DNA from: a virus
Lineage: Duplodnaviria > Caudoviricetes
Direction: 5' to 3' (one strand)
Virus record (IMG/VR): IMGVR_UViG_3300033066_002329
Span: 1-64,000 of that record
DNA length: 64,000 bases
Positions 7,927-56,467 of the stretch are shown here, one piece after another; the first letter of the stretch is position 1; each line of letters starts with the position of its first letter. The notes under the pieces were generated by a model. It did no database searches. It saw only the letters and a list, made by a program, of their open reading frames with translations, and was not told the origin of the DNA. Both the position numbers and the translations under genes were made by a program.

Positions 7927-7944
7927 CAATTTTAAAAACTTGAG

Positions 7945-8842
7945 ATTACGGTTTTTAGTCCCGAACTTTGGTGGGATTATGTATTCCCCATTAGTCTTTA
8001 TCCAGGTATCTTGCGATACCTATTCGGTAGTCCTGATGAGCTAACGGCCATCACTCTTATCAATTGCTTCTATTCTGCAGATACTTCTCCTATACGATGA
8101 TGCCGCACCATATAAAACTTTCACTACAATCCGCCAAACTTTGTGAGTCTAAACGTTCCTAATTCAATCTTTCGAATGTTAGGATATGAAGAACCTTTCG
8201 AAGACAATCGTGTACGGGGTTTTTACTTTGTGTTATTTTAAACATAAATAGTAGCCTTCCAAGGGCAACTTTCCATCTTTCGATAAAAAGGGTTTCATAA
8301 TGCTCGCTAAGAGACGTACCCGTACAGGGTTGGCTCGGTTCCTTTTGAGAACGGAATACCACTACGCCTCTCTGTAGATGCTGACCGCATCCCACTAATT
8401 AATTTTATACTCTCCATTTGCATCATCCCGTCAAAGATAGCCTTAAATGGTGACGTAAGTATAAAACCTTTTTGACTTATAGCACTTGCCTTGCCTGACT
8501 TGCACAATAAATCTCGACTTTCTTATTTAGATATCCCTATCCTCAACACCACGTCATTATACATGATGTATTTCTCTCATCCATTAAGACATTGAGAAAT
8601 ATACTTATCTTTTGCTTGGTTGTCCTATCCAATGTATTACTACACTGACAAGGCGGAAGTTTGCAAACTCCCCTTTATTCACCATTACTGGGTTTATCTT
8701 TCCCCAGATAATTCCTCTTTCGAGAAACTATCTGTTGAGCCACCTTACGATGACTCAGGACATTGTATAACCTTTCGACTATACCAGGCCCCATGCGACC
8801 TGAATTTTTTTCAATATTTTAAAGAACGTTTCGTTTAATTTT
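7945..8842 (-). ncRNA. large (~0.9 kb) structured non-coding RNA, GOLLD/ROOL-like candidate
   Basis: GC-richer, no credible ORF, many GNRA-capped hairpins, own promoter and terminator, next to tRNA-like genes. Confidence 0.65.
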
Positions 8843-18993: not shown

Positions 18994-19127
18994 AAAACAG
19001 GGATAGTTTATTAAGAGTGTATTTGTTTTGTTAAGCAGGAGTTGAACCTGCATCCTTTTTCTTGACATGAAAACACTCATCCATTGAGCTTTTAACCGAA
19101 GTAACTCTTAAATATTGCCACTGTTTT
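18994..19127 (-). ncRNA. Y RNA-like (Yrl) element enclosing a tRNA-like cloverleaf
   Basis: Shared arms GTGGC..AAGAGTTACTTC / TACACTCTT..ACTATCCC around D-, anticodon- (ATGTCAA) and T-arms. Confidence 0.65.
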
Positions 19128-19128
19128 G

Positions 19129-19202
19129 AGAGAACAATCGGGATTGAACCGACTCTATTTCGCCTTGGCAAGACGATGCACCACCACTTATGCGTCATTC
19201 TC
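19129..19202 (-). tRNA. tRNA-Gly(GCC), second copy
   Basis: Cloverleaf, loop TTGCCAA, U73. Confidence 0.85.
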
Positions 19203-19253
19203 TTGGAGAGGGACAGGTTATTTATACCTTTAAGGGACTCCCTCAGACCCTTG

Positions 19254-19326
19254 AGCGAAAGACGGGGCTCGAACCCGCCACCCTCAGATTGGAAATCTGA
19301 TGCTCTACCAAATGAGCTACTTTCGC
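19254..19326 (-). tRNA. tRNA-Gly(TCC)
   Basis: Canonical, loop TTTCCAA. Confidence 0.92.
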
Positions 19327-19360
19327 ATATACAGGATTACAAGGTTCCTGAGGACCTTTG

Positions 19361-19434
19361 AGCAAGTGACGGGAATCGAACCCGCTCTGTTCCAGATTGG
19401 AAGTCTGGCGCACCACCGTTTATGCGTCACTTGC
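19361..19434 (-). tRNA. tRNA-Gly(TCC), second copy
   Basis: Canonical, loop CTTCCAA. Confidence 0.9.
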
Positions 19435-19437
19435 ATG

Positions 19438-19599
19438 TTGTAATAGTAATTAAAATGAGTAAAATAGACCGCTGGGTTTAGCCACTCCCCCATCTCCCCA
19501 TTTATAATATTTGTGGGGAGAGTACGATTCGAACATACGTAGAGCATAGCTCGGCGGTTTTAACCAATTTTGAAGTAACTCGCATTGTAGCCATTACAA
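19438..19599 (-). ncRNA. YrlA-like RNA with circularly permuted class-II tRNA module
   Basis: Order: conserved arm, variable arm, T-arm, acceptor TCTCCCC closed by loop to GGGGAGA, D-arm, conserved arm. Confidence 0.7.
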
Positions 19600-19605
19600 T
19601 TTTTT

Positions 19606-19720
19606 TATAGGGATAGTTAAGAAGAGTATGATGCTAACCACTTAGCGTCATCCCCATTATTTAATTTGAGGGGATGACAGGAATCGAACCTGCGAAGTAA
19701 CTCTTACTTTTGCCACTATA
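19606..19720 (-). ncRNA. YrlA-like RNA (permuted T-arm / loop-closed acceptor / D-arm)
   Basis: GCAGG TTCGATT CCTGT, CATCCCC..GGGGATG, GCT AAGTGGTT AGC inside the shared bulged stem. Confidence 0.75.
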
Positions 19721-50971: not shown

Positions 50972-51316
50972 TTAGGTCGCTTTTTTATTTAATGTAGACA
51001 TTTCTTCTATTGCTTGAAAATTATCATCTATTTTTTTACAAATAGCTTTAAAGTTTTTTATAATTTCATCAGAGAATCTAAACCATTCACCTTCAAGTTT
51101 ATTTCCATCTTCTTCATGAGCTTGAAATGATGAATAACTATTATGGATAGCTGCTTCTATTTGAGAAGCTCTATTTGTTTTATAAAAATCAGTAACAAGC
51201 AATTTTTTTGCACTGCCAGTTTGCAATTCTTTTAAACGTTTTTGAGGATTTTTCTTGGTAAAGCCAACCTTACAAACATTTGAGCCTTCTACTTGTATTA
51301 AATAAACAAATTTCAC
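50972..51316 (-). CDS. GIY-YIG-like T5orf172/MUG113 domain protein
   Basis: VYLIQ...KVGFT...RLKELQTGS...GEWF. Confidence 0.75.
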   Translation of the reverse strand: MKFVYLIQVEGSNVCKVGFTKKNPQKRLKELQTGSAKKLLVTDFYKTNRASQIEAAIHNSYSSFQAHEEDGNKLEGEWFRFSDEIIKNFKAICKKIDDNFQAIEEMSTLNKKAT

Positions 51317-51786: not shown

Positions 51787-53238
51787 TTATAATTCTACAC
51801 TATTTTTAATTGTATTAGTAAGAATGTTAATATCTTGCTCTGCAAGTTTCATAAGGTCAAAAATCTTTTCAGAAAATCCAACTAAAAAAATCACCTTATT
51901 TCCAACAAATTGAATTGTTGGATTACCTGCTAAATCAAAATTATATAAAAATGGATTTGCCCCTGTTTTCTTTTTATAATCATTAAAGCAATATTGACTT
52001 GAATTCATTTGACCCCAAGCTTCTCCATCTGATAATATAATCAAACGGTCATATTTATTTTTTTCTTTATCCATTAATTCAAAAAACTTACTATATTTTG
52101 TTCCTCCAAGGTCAATTCCATTAAACTTTTCACTGATAGTAAAAATACTATCTTTTAAATTAAAGTTTACATAATTAGCAGTATCTCCAAATACAATTAC
52201 ATCAGCATTATTTGATTTTGCTAATACAGCAGCAAATAAACCTCCAATTTTAGTTGGTTGACCACGCATAGAACCTGAACGGTCATATATTACACAAGTT
52301 TTTCCTGGTAATGCTGGAACATTAGAACAAGATATTTCAATAGCATCTTCTAATGCTGAGATAACTTGTCTCGAATTGCTTCCTCCTACTTTTTGCAATT
52401 CCTCAATTGCAGTTACAAATTGAAAAGGTAATATTAAAGACTTGGAAATTAAATTTTTATCTCTAAGCAAATTACATGCAGCATCTATAGACTCAGGAGA
52501 TTGAATCATTATATTTCTCAAATTTCTTACAAGAGCTAAATAACCAATCTTCTTAGTTTCAATAAGTTCTTTCCAAACTTGAGCCTTTTTTTCATTTTTA
52601 TCATTACCTGAATTAGACTGTCCTGCCTCAGAAAGTTTTGCCTCCCATGTATCTGTATTTTTTAAAGTACCATTAATAAGTTCAGCAAGAGCTTTCTTGT
52701 TTTTATTTGTTGCTTTAGGATGTACTAAATTAACAATATCAACAAGAGAAACTTCATTTCCTTCTCCTTTATATTTTGCCAATTGATATCCATCAAATTT
52801 ATCAAATGCCTTCGAAAATCCTTTTTTCAGAGAATTTGGTAAAGCCTTATTTTTATTTTTAATAAAATAATAAGATATAATTTCACTCATATCATCTGGT
52901 CTATTAATAATATCTTCAAAGAATTTTTTACTCCATTCTTTACCTGACAAGTATTTCGCAACTTCAACTGCAAGTACATGAGTAATAGAACGCATACCAA
53001 ATGTAGTTCTTGCATATATAGCAGCTTTTGCTGCAAATTTTGGGTCTACTTTTGTTAGTAATTCAGGAATCCTTTTTAAGGTATCTGTAGACTTTTTATA
53101 AAATTGGTCTTGTACAAATGAAGTTAAAAGAATTGACACTAATTCTACTTCTGCTGTTTTTTCATATGCTTGACCACCTGCATAATTAACAGCTTCAACT
53201 CTCTGTGGAGTTATCTTTTTTGTGTTAAATTTTCCCAT
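51787..53238 (-). CDS. Ro60/Rsr-like TROVE-vWA RNA-binding protein
   Basis: NYAGGQAY; YQLAKYK; YLALVRNLRN; YDRSGSM; LSDGE. Confidence 0.88.
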   Translation of the reverse strand: MGKFNTKKITPQRVEAVNYAGGQAYEKTAEVELVSILLTSFVQDQFYKKSTDTLKRIPELLTKVDPKFAAKAAIYARTTFGMRSITHVLAVEVAKYLSGKEWSKKFFEDIINRPDDMSEIISYYFIKNKNKALPNSLKKGFSKAFDKFDGYQLAKYKGEGNEVSLVDIVNLVHPKATNKNKKALAELINGTLKNTDTWEAKLSEAGQSNSGNDKNEKKAQVWKELIETKKIGYLALVRNLRNIMIQSPESIDAACNLLRDKNLISKSLILPFQFVTAIEELQKVGGSNSRQVISALEDAIEISCSNVPALPGKTCVIYDRSGSMRGQPTKIGGLFAAVLAKSNNADVIVFGDTANYVNFNLKDSIFTISEKFNGIDLGGTKYSKFFELMDKEKNKYDRLIILSDGEAWGQMNSSQYCFNDYKKKTGANPFLYNFDLAGNPTIQFVGNKVIFLVGFSEKIFDLMKLAEQDINILTNTIKNSVEL

Positions 53239-53270
53239 TTTCTTTTTTTTAAGGGTTAAACATTTTATGC

Positions 53271-53304
53271 AAAAAAAAAGGACATCATCTTACGACAATA
53301 TCCC
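53271..53304 (-). terminator. terminator between Y-like leader and Ro60 gene
   Basis: GGATATTGTC-GTAA-GATGATGTCC + T run. Confidence 0.75.
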
Positions 53305-53383
53305 ATTCAAACACACTAAAATAAGTTGTATAATTTTATAGCCTGAAATATTCAGGCACTTCCTTATCTTAGTATTTATTTTT

Positions 53384-53453
53384 ATAGGGATATTGTAAAA
53401 AGAGTATTTTGATAAATCTTGGTAATCGAAGTAACTCTTTTAGTCGCCACTAT
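53384..53453 (-). ncRNA. minimal Y RNA-like element (no tRNA module) upstream of Ro60
   Basis: ATAGTGGC..AAAAGAGTTACTTC..TACTCTTTT..ATATCCCTAT; same arms as the three elements at 19.0-19.7 kb. Confidence 0.7.
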
Positions 53454-53640
53454 TTTTTTACTTTTATAAATAACTAATATTATATATATTTAAAATTTAA
53501 TAAAACACTTCTCTTAAATCAAATATTTTTATGTTTTTTTTGTAACTTATTGATTTTCAATGCTAAAATTACTTATTAACTTATATTTTTTTTTCTTTTT
53601 ACGCAAAAAAACATTTATATTTATAAATAAACAGGTTGAT

Positions 53641-53904
53641 ATGGAAAACAATAAAGAAGAAACAAAAGACAAAGCAATCAATGAAGAAATAAAAGATACA
53701 GAAATCTTTTCATTTAGTTGTCTCGTTAATATTATTTTAGATTATTATAGTGAAACTTCTTCTGAAGAAGATTCGTCTGAAGCTTGGAAAAAAGGAACAG
53801 AACACGAAGAAAAAGGTGGAGTATCAGTTCCTAATGATGTAGATGATTTAGTAAAGAAAGCATTTAAATCTCAATTAAAAAAATTTATAAATAAAAATGT
53901 TTAG
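53641..53904 (+). CDS. acidic hypothetical protein
   Basis: Likely start ATG 53641. Confidence 0.55.
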   Translation: MENNKEETKDKAINEEIKDTEIFSFSCLVNIILDYYSETSSEEDSSEAWKKGTEHEEKGGVSVPNDVDDLVKKAFKSQLKKFINKNV

Positions 53905-54712
53905 TGATAACAATTTAATATTATTTTTACTTTGTATTATACCAGTAGTATTTTATTCACTTTTTATTTTTGCTAATTCTCCTTCTTTTTCAATAAGATT
54001 AAAGGCTTCTTTCACTTATTTGTATACAGGTTTATTATCAGTTACTTTGTTACAATTTATTCATTTTATATTTCCTCATTTACATGATGTATTTTTACAA
54101 ATTAATGTAGAAAAATTTACAATACAAAATGAGAATTTTAATTTTGTACAACCTACACTTGGCTCAATCATTCTATTTGCATTTATTCAAGTAGCATTAT
54201 TTGAAGAACTATCAAAATGGGTAGCTTTTAAATGCGTAAGCTATATGCGTGGCAGAAGAAGAAAAAACTTAGACCATCCTTATGCTATAATGTTTTATTC
54301 CTCATTAGTAGCAGCAGCTTTTTCTATAGTTGAAAATATTCAATATGCTCAACGAGCTATGTCTGGTGAATTTGGAATTGTAGAACCTTCAGATATTTTA
54401 ACCATAAGAGCTGTTACATCAGTAATTGTTCATATGGCCTGTGGTTTATTTATGGGTTATTATATGGGTCTGTCCAAAGGTTGCAACAAGCCAAAGGTAA
54501 TTTTATATAATACAATAGGTATTATATTAGCAACTTTTACGCATGGAATCTATGATTTTAATTTAATGAGAACAAATACTGCAAGTGATTTTTTTCATTG
54601 CTTCGGAACTGAAATACACATTCCAAGTTTAGTGATAATAAGTTTCAGCTTATTATCTTGCTATTTAATGTCTTGCTACTTAAAAACTAAAGAGACTACT
54701 AATCTTCAGTAA
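53897..54712 (+). CDS. PrsW-family intramembrane glutamic/metallo-protease
   Basis: FEELSKW; FSIVEN; HMACG; HGIYD. Confidence 0.8.
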   Translation: MFSDNNLILFLLCIIPVVFYSLFIFANSPSFSIRLKASFTYLYTGLLSVTLLQFIHFIFPHLHDVFLQINVEKFTIQNENFNFVQPTLGSIILFAFIQVALFEELSKWVAFKCVSYMRGRRRKNLDHPYAIMFYSSLVAAAFSIVENIQYAQRAMSGEFGIVEPSDILTIRAVTSVIVHMACGLFMGYYMGLSKGCNKPKVILYNTIGIILATFTHGIYDFNLMRTNTASDFFHCFGTEIHIPSLVIISFSLLSCYLMSCYLKTKETTNLQ

Positions 54713-55247
54713 CAACTGTACCATTTTTAATATAATAACTCATTTCATCAAAGATACAAGTTAATATATCCATCAATGTAAATTTTACTTTTAGCTTTAA
54801 ATTTACATCATTATGTTTAAGCTCAATATTATCATCTATAATCAAAGATAAACTTCCAAGCTTATCAGAACCTATCTCACCTTCTAAAGCTTCTATAAAC
54901 TCAATTTCTGGAAGAATATAGACAAATTCTTCATCTGATAAAAACTCATCTGATTCTATAACCATTTTTTTATACAATCTTACTGCTTTATATTTTTTAT
55001 CTAATTTAGTTGCAGTCGCAAATGCTCTAACAACTTCATATTCTTCTGAAAAATATCCCTTAATAAATTCTCTAAGGCCATAAAGTCCATGAACAAGTTC
55101 TTCAATTTTTACATCTTCATCAATTGTAACATAGAAACCCAGAAGTTGCATTAAATATTCATTTATATTTTCTACTCCTTCTGTTGTTACTAATCCATCT
55201 TCTATGTAAAAATTACCATTCTTTTTTATGCTTAATAAATTCTTCAT
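54699..55247 (-). CDS. hypothetical protein
   Basis: ORF. Confidence 0.6.
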   Translation of the reverse strand: MKNLLSIKKNGNFYIEDGLVTTEGVENINEYLMQLLGFYVTIDEDVKIEELVHGLYGLREFIKGYFSEEYEVVRAFATATKLDKKYKAVRLYKKMVIESDEFLSDEEFVYILPEIEFIEALEGEIGSDKLGSLSLIIDDNIELKHNDVNLKLKVKFTLMDILTCIFDEMSYYIKNGTVVTED

Positions 55248-56467
55248 TATTTTACAGTTACAGCATTTAATTTTTCATCAAACTTCAGTTTTAATACAGT
55301 TCCTGGCTTAACTTTTTTACCTAATAAAAATTTAGCAATTGGAGTTTCTACATATGATGTAATTGCTCTCTTAAGAGGTCTTGCTCCATAGTCTCTATCA
55401 TATCCATTATCCATAAGAAATTTCTTAACAGACATATCAATATTTACTTTGTAACCTTTATTCTCAATTCTACTAATCATATGACCCAATTCAATATCAA
55501 CAATTTTTAAAATATTTTCTTCTGAAAGAGGCTGAAAAACTATCTTTTCATCAATTCTATTTAATAACTCAGGTCTAAATTCTTTTTTAAGTTCAGACAT
55601 GACTTTTTCTGTAACTGAATCATCAATAGAATTGCCTACTGCAAAACCAAGTTTTTTATCGGTTAATATTTTTTCTGTTCCAATGTTAGAAGTCATGATG
55701 ATAATTGTATTCTTAAAATTTATTTCTTTACCATGAGAATCAGAAAGTTTACCCTCATCAAGAACTTGTAATAAAATATTAAAAATATCCTTATGAGCTT
55801 TTTCAATTTCATCAAATAAAACAATTGAATATGGTTTGTTTTTTACTTTTTCTGTTAGTAAACCCTTTTCTTCATGGCCAACATATCCAGGAGGAGCACC
55901 TATTAATTTAGATACATTAAATTTCTCCATATATTCAGACATATCAAATCGTATAAATGATTCATCAGTATCAAACAAATACCTTGATAATATCTTTGCT
56001 AAGTGAGTATTGTGAGACAATATACCATTTGTATAATATCTCCTATTAGAATTTTCATCCAATTCAAGGTCATACATTTCTTCGAAAAACCCAGTAGCAA
56101 CTATTGATTTTATTTCGTCAATCTCAAGTTCTCCATTCCCGCTATCTACATATATTAAATCACCCACTGACAAGTTTGCAACAAAAATTTCATCCATTAA
56201 ATAGTCGAAAACTATATGGTTATCTGCGCACCTTATTTCTTTTCCAGATTTAGTTTTTAGTTCATACACTTCATATGGTATGGTTGTATGTAAATTAACA
56301 ATATCAATAAACCCTTCGTCAGTCAACACTTCATAATCTAATACTTTTTTTGTTTCTACTATTTTTTTATATCCATCAAACTCTTTTTTGTCTAATATAA
56401 AAAACTGTGGTCCATTTTCTCTTTTTCCTTCTATCATAATTTTTAAGTTAAATATTAAAATACTCAA
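55247..56467 (-). CDS. clpC: split-intein C-part fused to C-terminal half of ClpC-like ATPase (AAA2)
   Basis: ...ILSHN then THLAK; DMSEYMEK; GAPPGYVG; LFDEIEKAH; RPELLNRID. Confidence 0.9.
   Translation of the reverse strand: MSILIFNLKIMIEGKRENGPQFFILDKKEFDGYKKIVETKKVLDYEVLTDEGFIDIVNLHTTIPYEVYELKTKSGKEIRCADNHIVFDYLMDEIFVANLSVGDLIYVDSGNGELEIDEIKSIVATGFFEEMYDLELDENSNRRYYTNGILSHNTHLAKILSRYLFDTDESFIRFDMSEYMEKFNVSKLIGAPPGYVGHEEKGLLTEKVKNKPYSIVLFDEIEKAHKDIFNILLQVLDEGKLSDSHGKEINFKNTIIIMTSNIGTEKILTDKKLGFAVGNSIDDSVTEKVMSELKKEFRPELLNRIDEKIVFQPLSEENILKIVDIELGHMISRIENKGYKVNIDMSVKKFLMDNGYDRDYGARPLKRAITSYVETPIAKFLLGKKVKPGTVLKLKFDEKLNAVTVK
56009..56467 (-). mobile_element. C-intein (about 143-153 aa) of split intein
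   Basis: Block B IRCADNH; block F MYDLEL; block G SHN followed by Thr. Confidence 0.85.

What the first reader, a model, noticed from the sequence alone, without database searches (positions are those of the whole stretch)
53238..53472. Y-RNA-like leader positioned to autoregulate Ro60 by attenuation
A minimal copy of the Yrl stem (53384-53453) lies upstream of a terminator (53271-53304) that precedes the Ro60 ATG. The 3-prime strand of the Y-like stem, ACAATATCCC (53387-53396), is a perfect 10-bp complement of the terminator 5-prime arm GGGATATTGT (53295-53304). Inference: free Ro60 binding locks the Y stem and lets the terminator form; when Ro60 is titrated by Y RNAs or damaged RNA, the antiterminator forms and more Ro60 is made. 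This would be a third, protein-sensing attenuator coupled to the tRNA-operon Y RNAs.
Basis: partly seen in the sequence, partly recalled or inferred. Interest (0 to 1): 0.8.

Follow-up and report, generated by a model that had tools for sequence, protein, structure and literature searches.

The report
Y-RNA leader switch before phage Ro60
Just upstream of this phage's Ro60 gene lies a small copy of Ro60's partner RNA (a Y RNA); its tail can pair with its own 5' end or with the transcription stop signal that follows, and many related phages keep this choice, so it probably sets how much Ro60 is made.

Summary
The window is part of an 88.9-kb uncultured phage record. The minus-strand gene 51787-53238 is a Ro60/TROVE protein. 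Its 5' leader holds a minimal Y-like RNA (53453-53384), a hairpin domain, and an intrinsic terminator (53304-53279 plus U9) that ends 32 nt before the ATG.

The 10-nt complement between 53396-53387 and the terminator 5' arm 53304-53295 is exact (1 of 200 shuffles reaches this length).

New here: among 45 dereplicated phage or metagenome Ro60 loci with a terminator before the gene, the best partner of the terminator's 5' arm lies in the 3' strand of a tRNA-less mini-Y in 32 (perfect matches) to 39 (energy-based). Cross-locus controls give 15-31%. At least eight different sequences are involved, with compensatory changes. The mirror pairing (Y 5' strand with terminator 3' arm) is at background.

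In the window the two folds differ by only about 2 kcal/mol. A terminator/antiterminator/anti-antiterminator switch is therefore well supported. That Ro60 is the effector, and the sign of the effect, remain inferred.

This scan has noted the same architecture in other phage genomes (e1-5401662, e1-5941537, e1-3753721).

The parts
53494..53522 (-). Candidate promoter TTGATT-17-TAAATT. An alternative -10, TATAAT, lies at 53484-53479 with no good -35. Weak and unverified.
   Evidence: Read from the sequence. It was not listed by the consensus scan, which needs 9 of 12 matches. The real start site is unknown.
53447..53453 (-). Segment 1: 5' strand of the outer Y helix, AUAG[U]GG, with a bulged U at 53449.
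   Evidence: Pairs with 53389-53384 in the fold of the first 79 nt. The helix with a bulged U covaries across 46 distinct elements and is 100% paired over its six core pairs in the 24-sequence clade alignment.
53427..53441 (-). Inner helix 5' strand (53441-53434) and the invariant handle GUUACUUCG (53435-53427), the likely Ro60 contact by analogy.
   Evidence: Handle found four times in the 88.9-kb record, all on the minus strand. It lies upstream of Ro60 in almost all related loci and its columns are invariant in alignments A3 and A5. It resembles the GNCGAA / CGAA motif of bacterial and phage Y RNAs (PMC4201824, PMC12135203).
53398..53405 (-). Inner helix 3' strand, ACUCUUUU.
   Evidence: Eight pairs with 53441-53434 in all folds. 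Inner-helix covariation is shown.
53384..53396 (-). Segment 2: the shared strand. CCCUAU (53389-53384) closes the Y helix. ACAAUAUCCC (53396-53387) pairs with the terminator 5' arm.
   Evidence: Its 7 nt in the internal loop (53396-53390) can act as a toehold (inference).
53308..53380 (-). Middle hairpin domain, capped by GCCUGAA/UUCAGGC at 53357-53341. It brings segments 2 and 3 side by side.
   Evidence: Folds. In relatives the same position holds a closed Y-type RNA.
53271..53304 (-). Intrinsic terminator: segment 3 (5' arm 53304-53294), loop 53293-53290, segment 4 (3' arm 53289-53279), U9 (53279-53271).
   Evidence: -12.3 kcal/mol. The 5' arm is identical in L057 while the 3' arm differs at several positions.
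51787..53238 (-). Ro60 / TROVE protein gene (483 aa).
   Evidence: Pfam TROVE 1.4e-23 and vWA_Ro60 2.5e-07. 2889 homologues at E of 1e-10 or better; the start MGKFN is conserved.

Best explanation
The 190-nt leader of the phage Ro60 gene is a three-helix transcription attenuator built from a minimal Y RNA.

Segment 2 (53396-53384) can close the Y stem with segment 1 (53453-47); this is the anti-antiterminator. Alternatively it can pair with segment 3 (53304-53295); this is the antiterminator. Segment 3 otherwise pairs with segment 4 to form the terminator 32 nt before the Ro60 ATG.

Transcripts that stop there give a small Y-like RNA. Transcripts that read through give Ro60 mRNA.

Shown here: the three helices, their mutual exclusivity, their near-equal stability, and conservation of the 2:3 pairing by covariation in many phage lineages.

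Inferred: the effector is Ro60 itself. Ro60 bound to the nascent mini-Y would hold helix 1:2 and cover the toehold, so the terminator forms. When Ro60 is all occupied elsewhere, 2:3 forms and more Ro60 is made. This would keep Ro60 and Y RNA in balance.
For: Exact 10-bp complement, 1 of 200 shuffles.

Stepwise folds: the Y stem forms first. As soon as segment 3 exists the minimum-energy fold switches to 2:3 (-41.6 against -29.5 kcal/mol). With segment 4 the two states differ by 1.7-2.0 kcal/mol.

Across 45 dereplicated loci with a terminator, the best perfect complement of the terminator 5' arm falls 30-60 nt after a Y handle in 32. This compares with 15% for 1004 cross-locus controls and 15.5% of positions. 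Energy-based, it is 39 of 45 against 31%.

Mean duplex energy is -14.4 kcal/mol for a locus's own arm against -8.9 (sd 3.2) for arms from other loci.

The paired sequences differ between lineages: window 10 bp, L023 12 bp, L014 10 bp, the GACCAGA clade 7-9 bp with C-G to U-A in L114 and added G-C/A-U pairs in L027 and L110.

On alignment A5, 74.6% of cells are paired against 40.5% or less when slid. The covariation score is reached by 1 of 500 shuffles.

Mean energies are 1:2 -11.8, 2:3 -14.3, 3:4 -17.0 and 1:4 -7.3, the last being background.

The nascent-transcript minimum-energy fold contains 2:3 in 28 of 29 loci.

The partner is always a mini-Y without a tRNA-like insert, and it keeps the invariant handle.

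The terminator lies 57 nt or less from the start codon in 38 of 45 loci.
Against: There are no binding or transcription data, and the promoter is not identified.

In most relatives the terminator state is favoured by a median of 5.6 kcal/mol once complete, so the antiterminator must act kinetically or with help.

In many loci 2 and 3 lie 230-340 nt apart.

Many of the 45 loci belong to one clade, where the core 7 bp is conserved rather than covarying.

Ro60 is reported to contact mainly the 5' strand and to open the helix (PMC4201824, PMC12135203), so the sign is uncertain.

23 of 68 phage or metagenome loci and 27 of 33 cellular loci have no such terminator.

No Rfam Y-RNA model matches.
Confidence: 0.5

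Rival explanations
1. This is a stand-alone YrlB-like Y RNA gene with its own terminator, and Ro60 is made by constitutive leaky read-through. The 2:3 complementarity serves folding, processing or stability of the precursor, for example by closing the intervening RNA domain. It does not regulate anything.
For: Y RNAs encoded upstream of Ro60 on the same strand and cut from one precursor are established (PMC4201824; phiLo Yrl1/Yrl2, PMC12135203). The mini-Y has the same handle and helices as the tRNA-like copies. In relatives 2:3 encloses a complete second Y-type RNA. An earlier follow-up on another phage reached this reading (e1-3753721).
Against: A processing stalk would not need to use the very strand that closes the mini-Y, nor the 5' arm of the terminator. 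The overlap with both helices is kept in every lineage. The helices are 7-12 bp, which is short for RNase III. The two folds are nearly isoenergetic in the window.
Confidence: 0.25
2. The switch is real but the signal is different. One option is that Ro60 binding to the 5' strand opens helix 1:2 and frees segment 2, giving antitermination and positive feedback. Another is that a different factor decides: a host chaperone or nuclease, temperature, polymerase speed, or a trans-acting Y RNA.
For: Ro60 mainly contacts the 5' strand and separates the stem in the Xenopus structure, as summarised in PMC4201824 section 6 and the PMC12135203 introduction. The window's outer helix is weak (6 bp, -6.2 kcal/mol) compared with 2:3 (-14.9), so read-through may be the default without any factor.
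Against: Nothing tested here separates it from the main reading. Autogenous negative control is the common pattern for RNA-binding proteins whose leader mimics their target (established knowledge). The tRNA-operon Y RNAs match segment 3 by only 6 nt (read).
Confidence: 0.18
3. The complementarity is a chance match in AT-rich DNA, or the hairpin is translationally controlled by the 13-codon ORF that starts at 53306.
For: Any 10-nt complement within 235 nt arises in 14% of shuffles. An ATG-initiated 13-codon frame covers the terminator.
Against: Locus-specific conservation in 32-39 of 45 loci against 15-31% in controls. The small ORF has no ribosome-binding site and is absent from L057 and L006.
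Confidence: 0.03

Closest known systems
Bacterial and phage Y RNAs next to Ro60 (YrlA/YrlB, Yrn1/Yrn2; phiLo Yrl1/Yrl2): Chen et al. 2014 PMC4201824; PMC12135203
   Same: Encoded just upstream of Ro60 on the same strand. A long stem is formed by the 5' and 3' ends, with a bulged helix. A conserved motif on the 5' strand ends in CGA(A). Sister copies in the same phage carry the T-arm / closed acceptor / D-arm order of YrlA. The short, tRNA-less form resembles YrlB.
   Different: The handle is GWUACUUCG rather than GNCGAA. No Rfam model hit. Neither paper says anything about a terminator, alternative pairing or autoregulation; term searches in both found none. Here the Y RNA doubles as a cis-regulatory element.
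Protein-dependent attenuators with anti-antiterminator, antiterminator and terminator (B. subtilis PyrR/pyr leaders; L20 control of the infC-rpmI-rplT leader; L4 at the S10 leader). Named from general knowledge.
   Same: Three overlapping helices ahead of the regulated gene. The proposed effector is the gene's own RNA-binding product, recognising a mimic of its normal RNA partner.
   Different: The mimic is a Y RNA and the protein is Ro60. The terminated product is itself a likely functional small RNA. The partner strands can lie 74-340 nt apart, bridged by another folded RNA. No binding has been shown. The sub-threshold Rfam L20_leader hit (25.4 bits against a 58.7 cut-off) reflects only a hairpin plus a terminator.
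trp-type 1:2 / 2:3 / 3:4 leader attenuators
   Same: The same topology of mutually exclusive helices and the same default logic: the antiterminator forms first.
   Different: There is no conserved leader peptide. The 13-codon ORF over the terminator is not conserved. Helix 1:2 is a conserved protein-binding-type RNA fold rather than a ribosome-sensed segment.

Membership tests
Y RNA (bacterial/phage Yrl type) | Encoded within a few kb of a Ro60/TROVE gene, on the same strand | tested here: met
   The element ends 146 nt before the Ro60 ATG on the same strand. The same handle lies upstream of Ro60 in nearly all of about 120 related loci.
Y RNA (bacterial/phage Yrl type) | Stem formed by the 5' and 3' ends, containing a bulged helix | tested here: met
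   Outer helix NNAG[U]RG / CYCUNN and an inner helix, with several pair types per position in 46 distinct elements. The six core pairs are 100% paired in A5. The window leader copy has 6 outer and 8 inner pairs.
Y RNA (bacterial/phage Yrl type) | 5'-strand Ro60 recognition motif GNCGAA(N)G / CGAA | tested here: inconclusive
   The window has CUUCGAU. Many relatives have CUUCGAAA. This is similar but does not match the published consensus (PMC4201824).
Y RNA, YrlA subclass | tRNA-like domain (T-arm, acceptor-like stem, D-arm) | tested here: not met
   The leader copy has only a 19-nt apical segment. The tRNA-operon copy 19718-19610 does have the domain. The leader is therefore YrlB-like, not YrlA.
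Y RNA (Rfam models) | Match to a curated covariance model | tested here: not met
   No Y-RNA family hit at E up to 10 in 52800-54000, up to 0.5 in the whole window, or at gathering score in ten related loci.
Y RNA | Bound by Ro60 | not testable with these tools
   Needs a gel-shift assay or co-purification.
Transcription attenuator (terminator / antiterminator / anti-antiterminator) | Intrinsic terminator between promoter and coding region, with no room for a downstream promoter | tested here: met
   Hairpin of -12.3 kcal/mol plus U9, 32 nt before the ATG. The distance is 57 nt or less in 38 of 45 loci.
Transcription attenuator (terminator / antiterminator / anti-antiterminator) | Alternative helix that sequesters the terminator 5' arm, kept in evolution | tested here: met
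   (numbers are given in the best explanation).
Transcription attenuator (terminator / antiterminator / anti-antiterminator) | Third helix that competes for the antiterminator strand | tested here: met
   Helix 1:2 shares CCC with 2:3 in the window. In other lineages the 2:3 match always covers at least 3 nt of the helix core flanking the bulged U; this was read for WIN, L005, L014 and L023.
Transcription attenuator (terminator / antiterminator / anti-antiterminator) | A signal (protein, ribosome or ligand) that shifts the balance | not testable with these tools
   Ro60 is proposed by analogy only.
Transcription attenuator (terminator / antiterminator / anti-antiterminator) | Promoter upstream of the leader | tested here: inconclusive
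   Only weak sigma-70-like candidates are present (53522-53494; TATAAT at 53484-53479). The relatives are mostly from Bacteroidota-type settings, whose promoters the scan does not cover.

The most novel reading that the evidence does not exclude
A Y RNA acts in cis as the sensor of a Ro60-responsive attenuator found across many lineages of large phages. It would set the Ro60 : Y RNA ratio by choosing between a terminated small RNA and read-through Ro60 mRNA. This would be the first natural autoregulatory circuit described for Ro60 and the first cis-regulatory role for a Y RNA.
Probability: 0.4. Interest if true: 0.85.

Novelty: new variant of a known kind. Interest (0 to 1): 0.72.

Why it matters
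Ro60 and Y RNAs are studied from bacteria to humans, where Ro60 is a lupus and Sjögren autoantigen. How cells or viruses balance the protein against its RNA partners is not known. A conserved switch in which the partner RNA gates transcription of the protein gene gives a concrete, easily tested answer for phages.

It would also assign a function to the short, tRNA-less Y RNAs. In addition it supplies a compact natural part (about 190 nt) for a protein-responsive terminator. The comparative signal already defines which bases to mutate.

Tried and rejected
- **Rfam:** run at gathering and at permissive thresholds on the window and on ten loci. It found no Y-RNA family, only tRNAs, GOLLD and a sub-threshold L20_leader resemblance.
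- **Single-protein scan of viral contigs:** found nothing. An alignment-based scan was needed.
- **The look-up of encoding contigs:** The single metagenome scan returned only relatives of 33-57% identity.
- **MAFFT plus RNAalifold on 23 mini-Y elements:** predicted no pairs because the 3' halves were misaligned. I replaced this with anchor-based pair tables, which pick the best complement and are therefore somewhat biased towards pairing. They mis-registered the weak outer helix of the window copy.
- **Perfect-match search:** missed loci whose 2:3 helix has a G-U pair or a bulge (L054, L083, L095, L113, L127, L130). These were recovered by reading and by the energy scan.
- **First count of structure pairs:** had an off-by-one error in my structure string. 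Corrected.
- **Pairing of the Y 5' strand with the terminator 3' arm (1:4):** considered and rejected because it is at background energy. This also argues against the terminator being merely a duplicated Y stem.
- **Leader-peptide control by the 13-codon ORF at 53306:** rejected because the ORF is not conserved.
- **Cellular Bacteroidota Ro60 loci:** mostly lack the arrangement.
- **Literature:** searches found no report of Ro60 autoregulation or of a Y-RNA-linked terminator. The 2020 review PMC10870794 is not held.

Full report
**What is there**

The window is the first 64 kb of an 88.9-kb IMG/VR virus record with 29% G+C. It carries tRNA arrays and a GOLLD RNA.

The minus-strand ORF 51787-53238 is a Ro60 protein: Pfam TROVE 1.4e-23 plus the Ro60 vWA domain. 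It has thousands of homologues. It diverges from a plus-strand gene, so the 320-400 nt between them must hold whatever drives Ro60.

Reading the minus strand from 53465 down gives, in order:
- a Y-like element (53453-53384);
- a hairpin domain capped by a perfect 7-bp stem (53357-53341);
- a terminator-like hairpin (53304-53279) followed by nine U;
- 32 nt later, the ATG.

**Is the Y-like element real?**

Yes. The handle AGAGTTACTTC occurs four times in the record, all on the minus strand. Three copies are inside the tRNA operon and one is in this leader.

The operon copies share both arms with the leader. The copy at 19718-19610 encloses a T-arm, a loop-closed acceptor stem and a D-arm in the YrlA order.

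The same handle lies on the Ro60 strand, 100-600 nt upstream of the gene, in nearly all of 51 viral and 80 metagenomic loci that encode a relative of this Ro60.

In 46 distinct elements the outer helix has the form NNAG[U]RG / CYCUNN with a bulged U. The outer and inner helices both show several Watson-Crick pair types per position. In a 24-sequence clade alignment the six core pairs are always paired.

This matches the published description of bacterial and phage Y RNAs: same strand, close to Ro60, terminal stem with a bulged helix, and a CGA(A)-type motif on the 5' strand (PMC4201824; PMC12135203).

It does not match any Rfam model. The leader copy has no tRNA-like domain, so it is a short, YrlB-like member.

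**Is the alternative pairing more than chance?**

In the window alone the evidence is moderate. One of 200 dinucleotide shuffles of the upstream 460 nt gives a complement of 10 nt or more to the terminator arm.

The decisive evidence is comparative. I dereplicated 124 upstream regions to 68. Of these, 45 have a terminator of -10 kcal/mol or better within 130 nt of the Ro60 start, and 38 of those lie within 57 nt.

The main measurements were:

| Test | Own locus | Control |
|---|---|---|
| Longest perfect complement of the terminator 5' arm (plus 8 nt) lies 30-60 nt after a Y handle | 32 of 45 | 15% of 1004 cross-locus arms of a different sequence type; 15.5% of positions |
| Best-energy partner (G-U and bulges allowed) lies in the Y 3'-strand zone | 39 of 45 | 31% of 300 cross-locus controls |
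| Mean duplex energy, kcal/mol | -14.4 | -8.9 (sd 3.2) |

The loci are not phylogenetically independent, but the paired sequences differ between lineages:

| Lineage | Segment 2 | Segment 3 | Length |
|---|---|---|---|
| Window | ACAAUAUCCC | GGGAUAUUGU | 10 bp |
| L023 | ACUCUGAUUACA | its exact complement | 12 bp |
| L014 / L034 | CCCUUGCAAA | UUUGCAAGGG | 10 bp |
| L012, L083, L130, L095, L113, L054 | as L014 | as L014 with one G-U | up to 11 bp |
| L102 | CCUUGUAA | UUACAAGG | 8 bp |
| Large huge-phage clade | UCUGGUC | GACCAGA | 7 bp |

Further types are L062 (13 bp with a bulge), L058/L059/L127 (10-11 bp with a bulge) and L067/L070 (16 positions with one mismatch and one wobble). These were read.

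Inside the huge-phage clade there are compensatory events. L114 has C-G changed to U-A. L027 and L110 have extra G-C and A-U pairs. L043 has an extra A-U pair. L005, L028 and L047 have an extra U-A pair.

On alignment A5, 74.6% of cells are paired against 40.5% or less for slid partners. The covariation score is reached by 1 of 500 shuffles, and 9 cells change on both sides against 4.4 expected.

**Which pairing is selected?**

If the terminator were only a duplicated Y stem, the Y 5' strand (segment 1) should match the terminator 3' arm (segment 4) as well as 2 matches 3. It does not.

| Helix | Mean energy, kcal/mol |
|---|---|
| 1:2 | -11.8 |
| 2:3 | -14.3 |
| 3:4 | -17.0 |
| 1:4 | -7.3 (background) |

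In several loci the 2:3 match extends into bases that pair with neither 1 nor 4. Examples are GUA/UAC in L023, UUUGC/GCAAA in L014, UC/GA in L027 and ACAAUAU in the window.

Between the window and L057 the terminator 5' arm is identical while the 3' arm differs at several positions. That is expected if the 5' arm is under a double constraint.

The partner is always a mini-Y without a tRNA-like insert. This holds even when tRNA-like Y RNAs lie nearer to the terminator.

**Energetics**

For the window:
- The first 79 nt fold into the Y shape (-8.4 kcal/mol).
- The middle hairpin then forms.
- When segment 3 has been made, the minimum-energy fold switches to 2:3 stacked on the middle hairpin (-41.6 against -29.5). 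The outer Y helix opens and the inner helix stays.
- With segment 4 present, the terminator state (-42.0) and the 2:3 state (-43.7 to -44.0) differ by about 2 kcal/mol.

Across 29 representative loci the nascent transcript's minimum-energy fold contains 2:3 in 28. Once complete, the terminator state is favoured by a median of 5.6 kcal/mol. This is the pattern of a kinetic switch. Partner choice in that test is partly by construction.

In the window, 7 of the 10 bases of segment 2 sit in the internal loop, so segment 3 could invade without first melting the Y stem (inference). The leader's outer helix (6 bp) is also the weakest of the phage's four copies; the operon copies score 8/9 and 9/9.

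**Mechanism**

Shown:
- three mutually exclusive helices ahead of Ro60;
- no room for a separate promoter after the terminator;
- conservation of the middle pairing.

Inferred: the deciding factor is Ro60 bound to the nascent mini-Y. The grounds are that the mini-Y keeps the invariant handle shared with the tRNA-like Y RNAs, that the regulated gene is Ro60, and that 2:3 always overlaps the helix core next to the bulged U.

However, published structures indicate that Ro60 reads mainly the 5' strand and can part the helix (PMC4201824 section 6; PMC12135203). Binding could therefore free segment 2 and favour read-through.

A non-regulatory role of 2:3 in folding or processing of the Y-RNA precursor cannot be excluded either.

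I put about 0.8 on a real structural switch, about 0.5 on Ro60 as its effector, and less on the sign.

**Distribution**

Of 33 full-length loci from cellular genomes (mostly Bacteroidota MAGs), only 6 have a terminator before Ro60. Only one has the 2:3 pairing, and it is a 3-kb contig of the same type as L014. The arrangement therefore looks like a feature of phage lineages.

**Comparison with what is known**

Y RNAs upstream of Ro60, including in phages, are known. A terminator switch built from one is not mentioned in the two key papers or found by full-text searches.

In kind it is an autogenous, mimic-based attenuator, like the PyrR, L20 or L4 leaders. This comparison is from general knowledge.

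The scan has noted the same architecture on other phage DNA (e1-5401662, e1-5941537, e1-3753721). My analysis was made before I saw those notes, and it agrees with them.

**Limits**

The promoter, the in vivo RNA ends and protein binding are all untested.

Noticed in passing
window 18995-19718 (minus strand): Three Y-like RNAs inside the tRNA operon share the leader's arms. The one at 19718-19610 has the YrlA order T-arm / closed acceptor / D-arm. The Rfam tRNA model also hits 19027-19098 and 19129-19202, which ARAGORN does not call. Their outer helices (8/9 and 9/9 pairs) are stronger than the leader's 6 bp.
   Followed up: partly
L009:2700-2935, L005:3575-3860 and the same place in about 20 related loci: A conserved structured RNA of about 270 nt lies between the mini-Y and the terminator in huge-phage relatives. 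It has a second GAGATACTTCG handle and a closing stem GCAAACA/TGTTTGC. It has no T-arm and matches no Rfam family.
   Followed up: no
L009:2470-2545, L017:2470-2545: A conserved block lies about 100 nt upstream of the mini-Y in the huge-phage clade. It includes CCACCTTCGAAAAAAACGAAATTT and GGTTGATATATAAC, and follows a terminator of the preceding gene. It could be the promoter or another control site.
   Followed up: no
window 53265-53306 (minus strand): A 13-codon ORF (MGYCRKMMSFFFA) starts at the ATG 53306 and runs through the terminator. It has no ribosome-binding site and is absent in L057 and L006.
   Followed up: yes
L137-L184 (cellular genome contigs): Relatives of this Ro60 in cellular genomes are almost all Bacteroidota (Saprospiraceae, Chitinophagales, Flavobacteriia and others). 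This hints at the phage's host group. These loci have Y handles but rarely the terminator or the 2:3 pairing.
   Followed up: partly
window 55247-56467 (minus strand); 50972-51316 (minus strand); 53897-54712 (plus strand): Three neighbouring genes: a ClpB-like AAA_2 ATPase with a weak intein-splicing match, a T5orf172/MUG113 domain protein just downstream of Ro60, and a PrsW-family membrane protease diverging from Ro60.
   Followed up: no
window 7937-8372 (minus strand): GOLLD RNA hit just above the Rfam gathering score (156.5 bits against 150).
   Followed up: no
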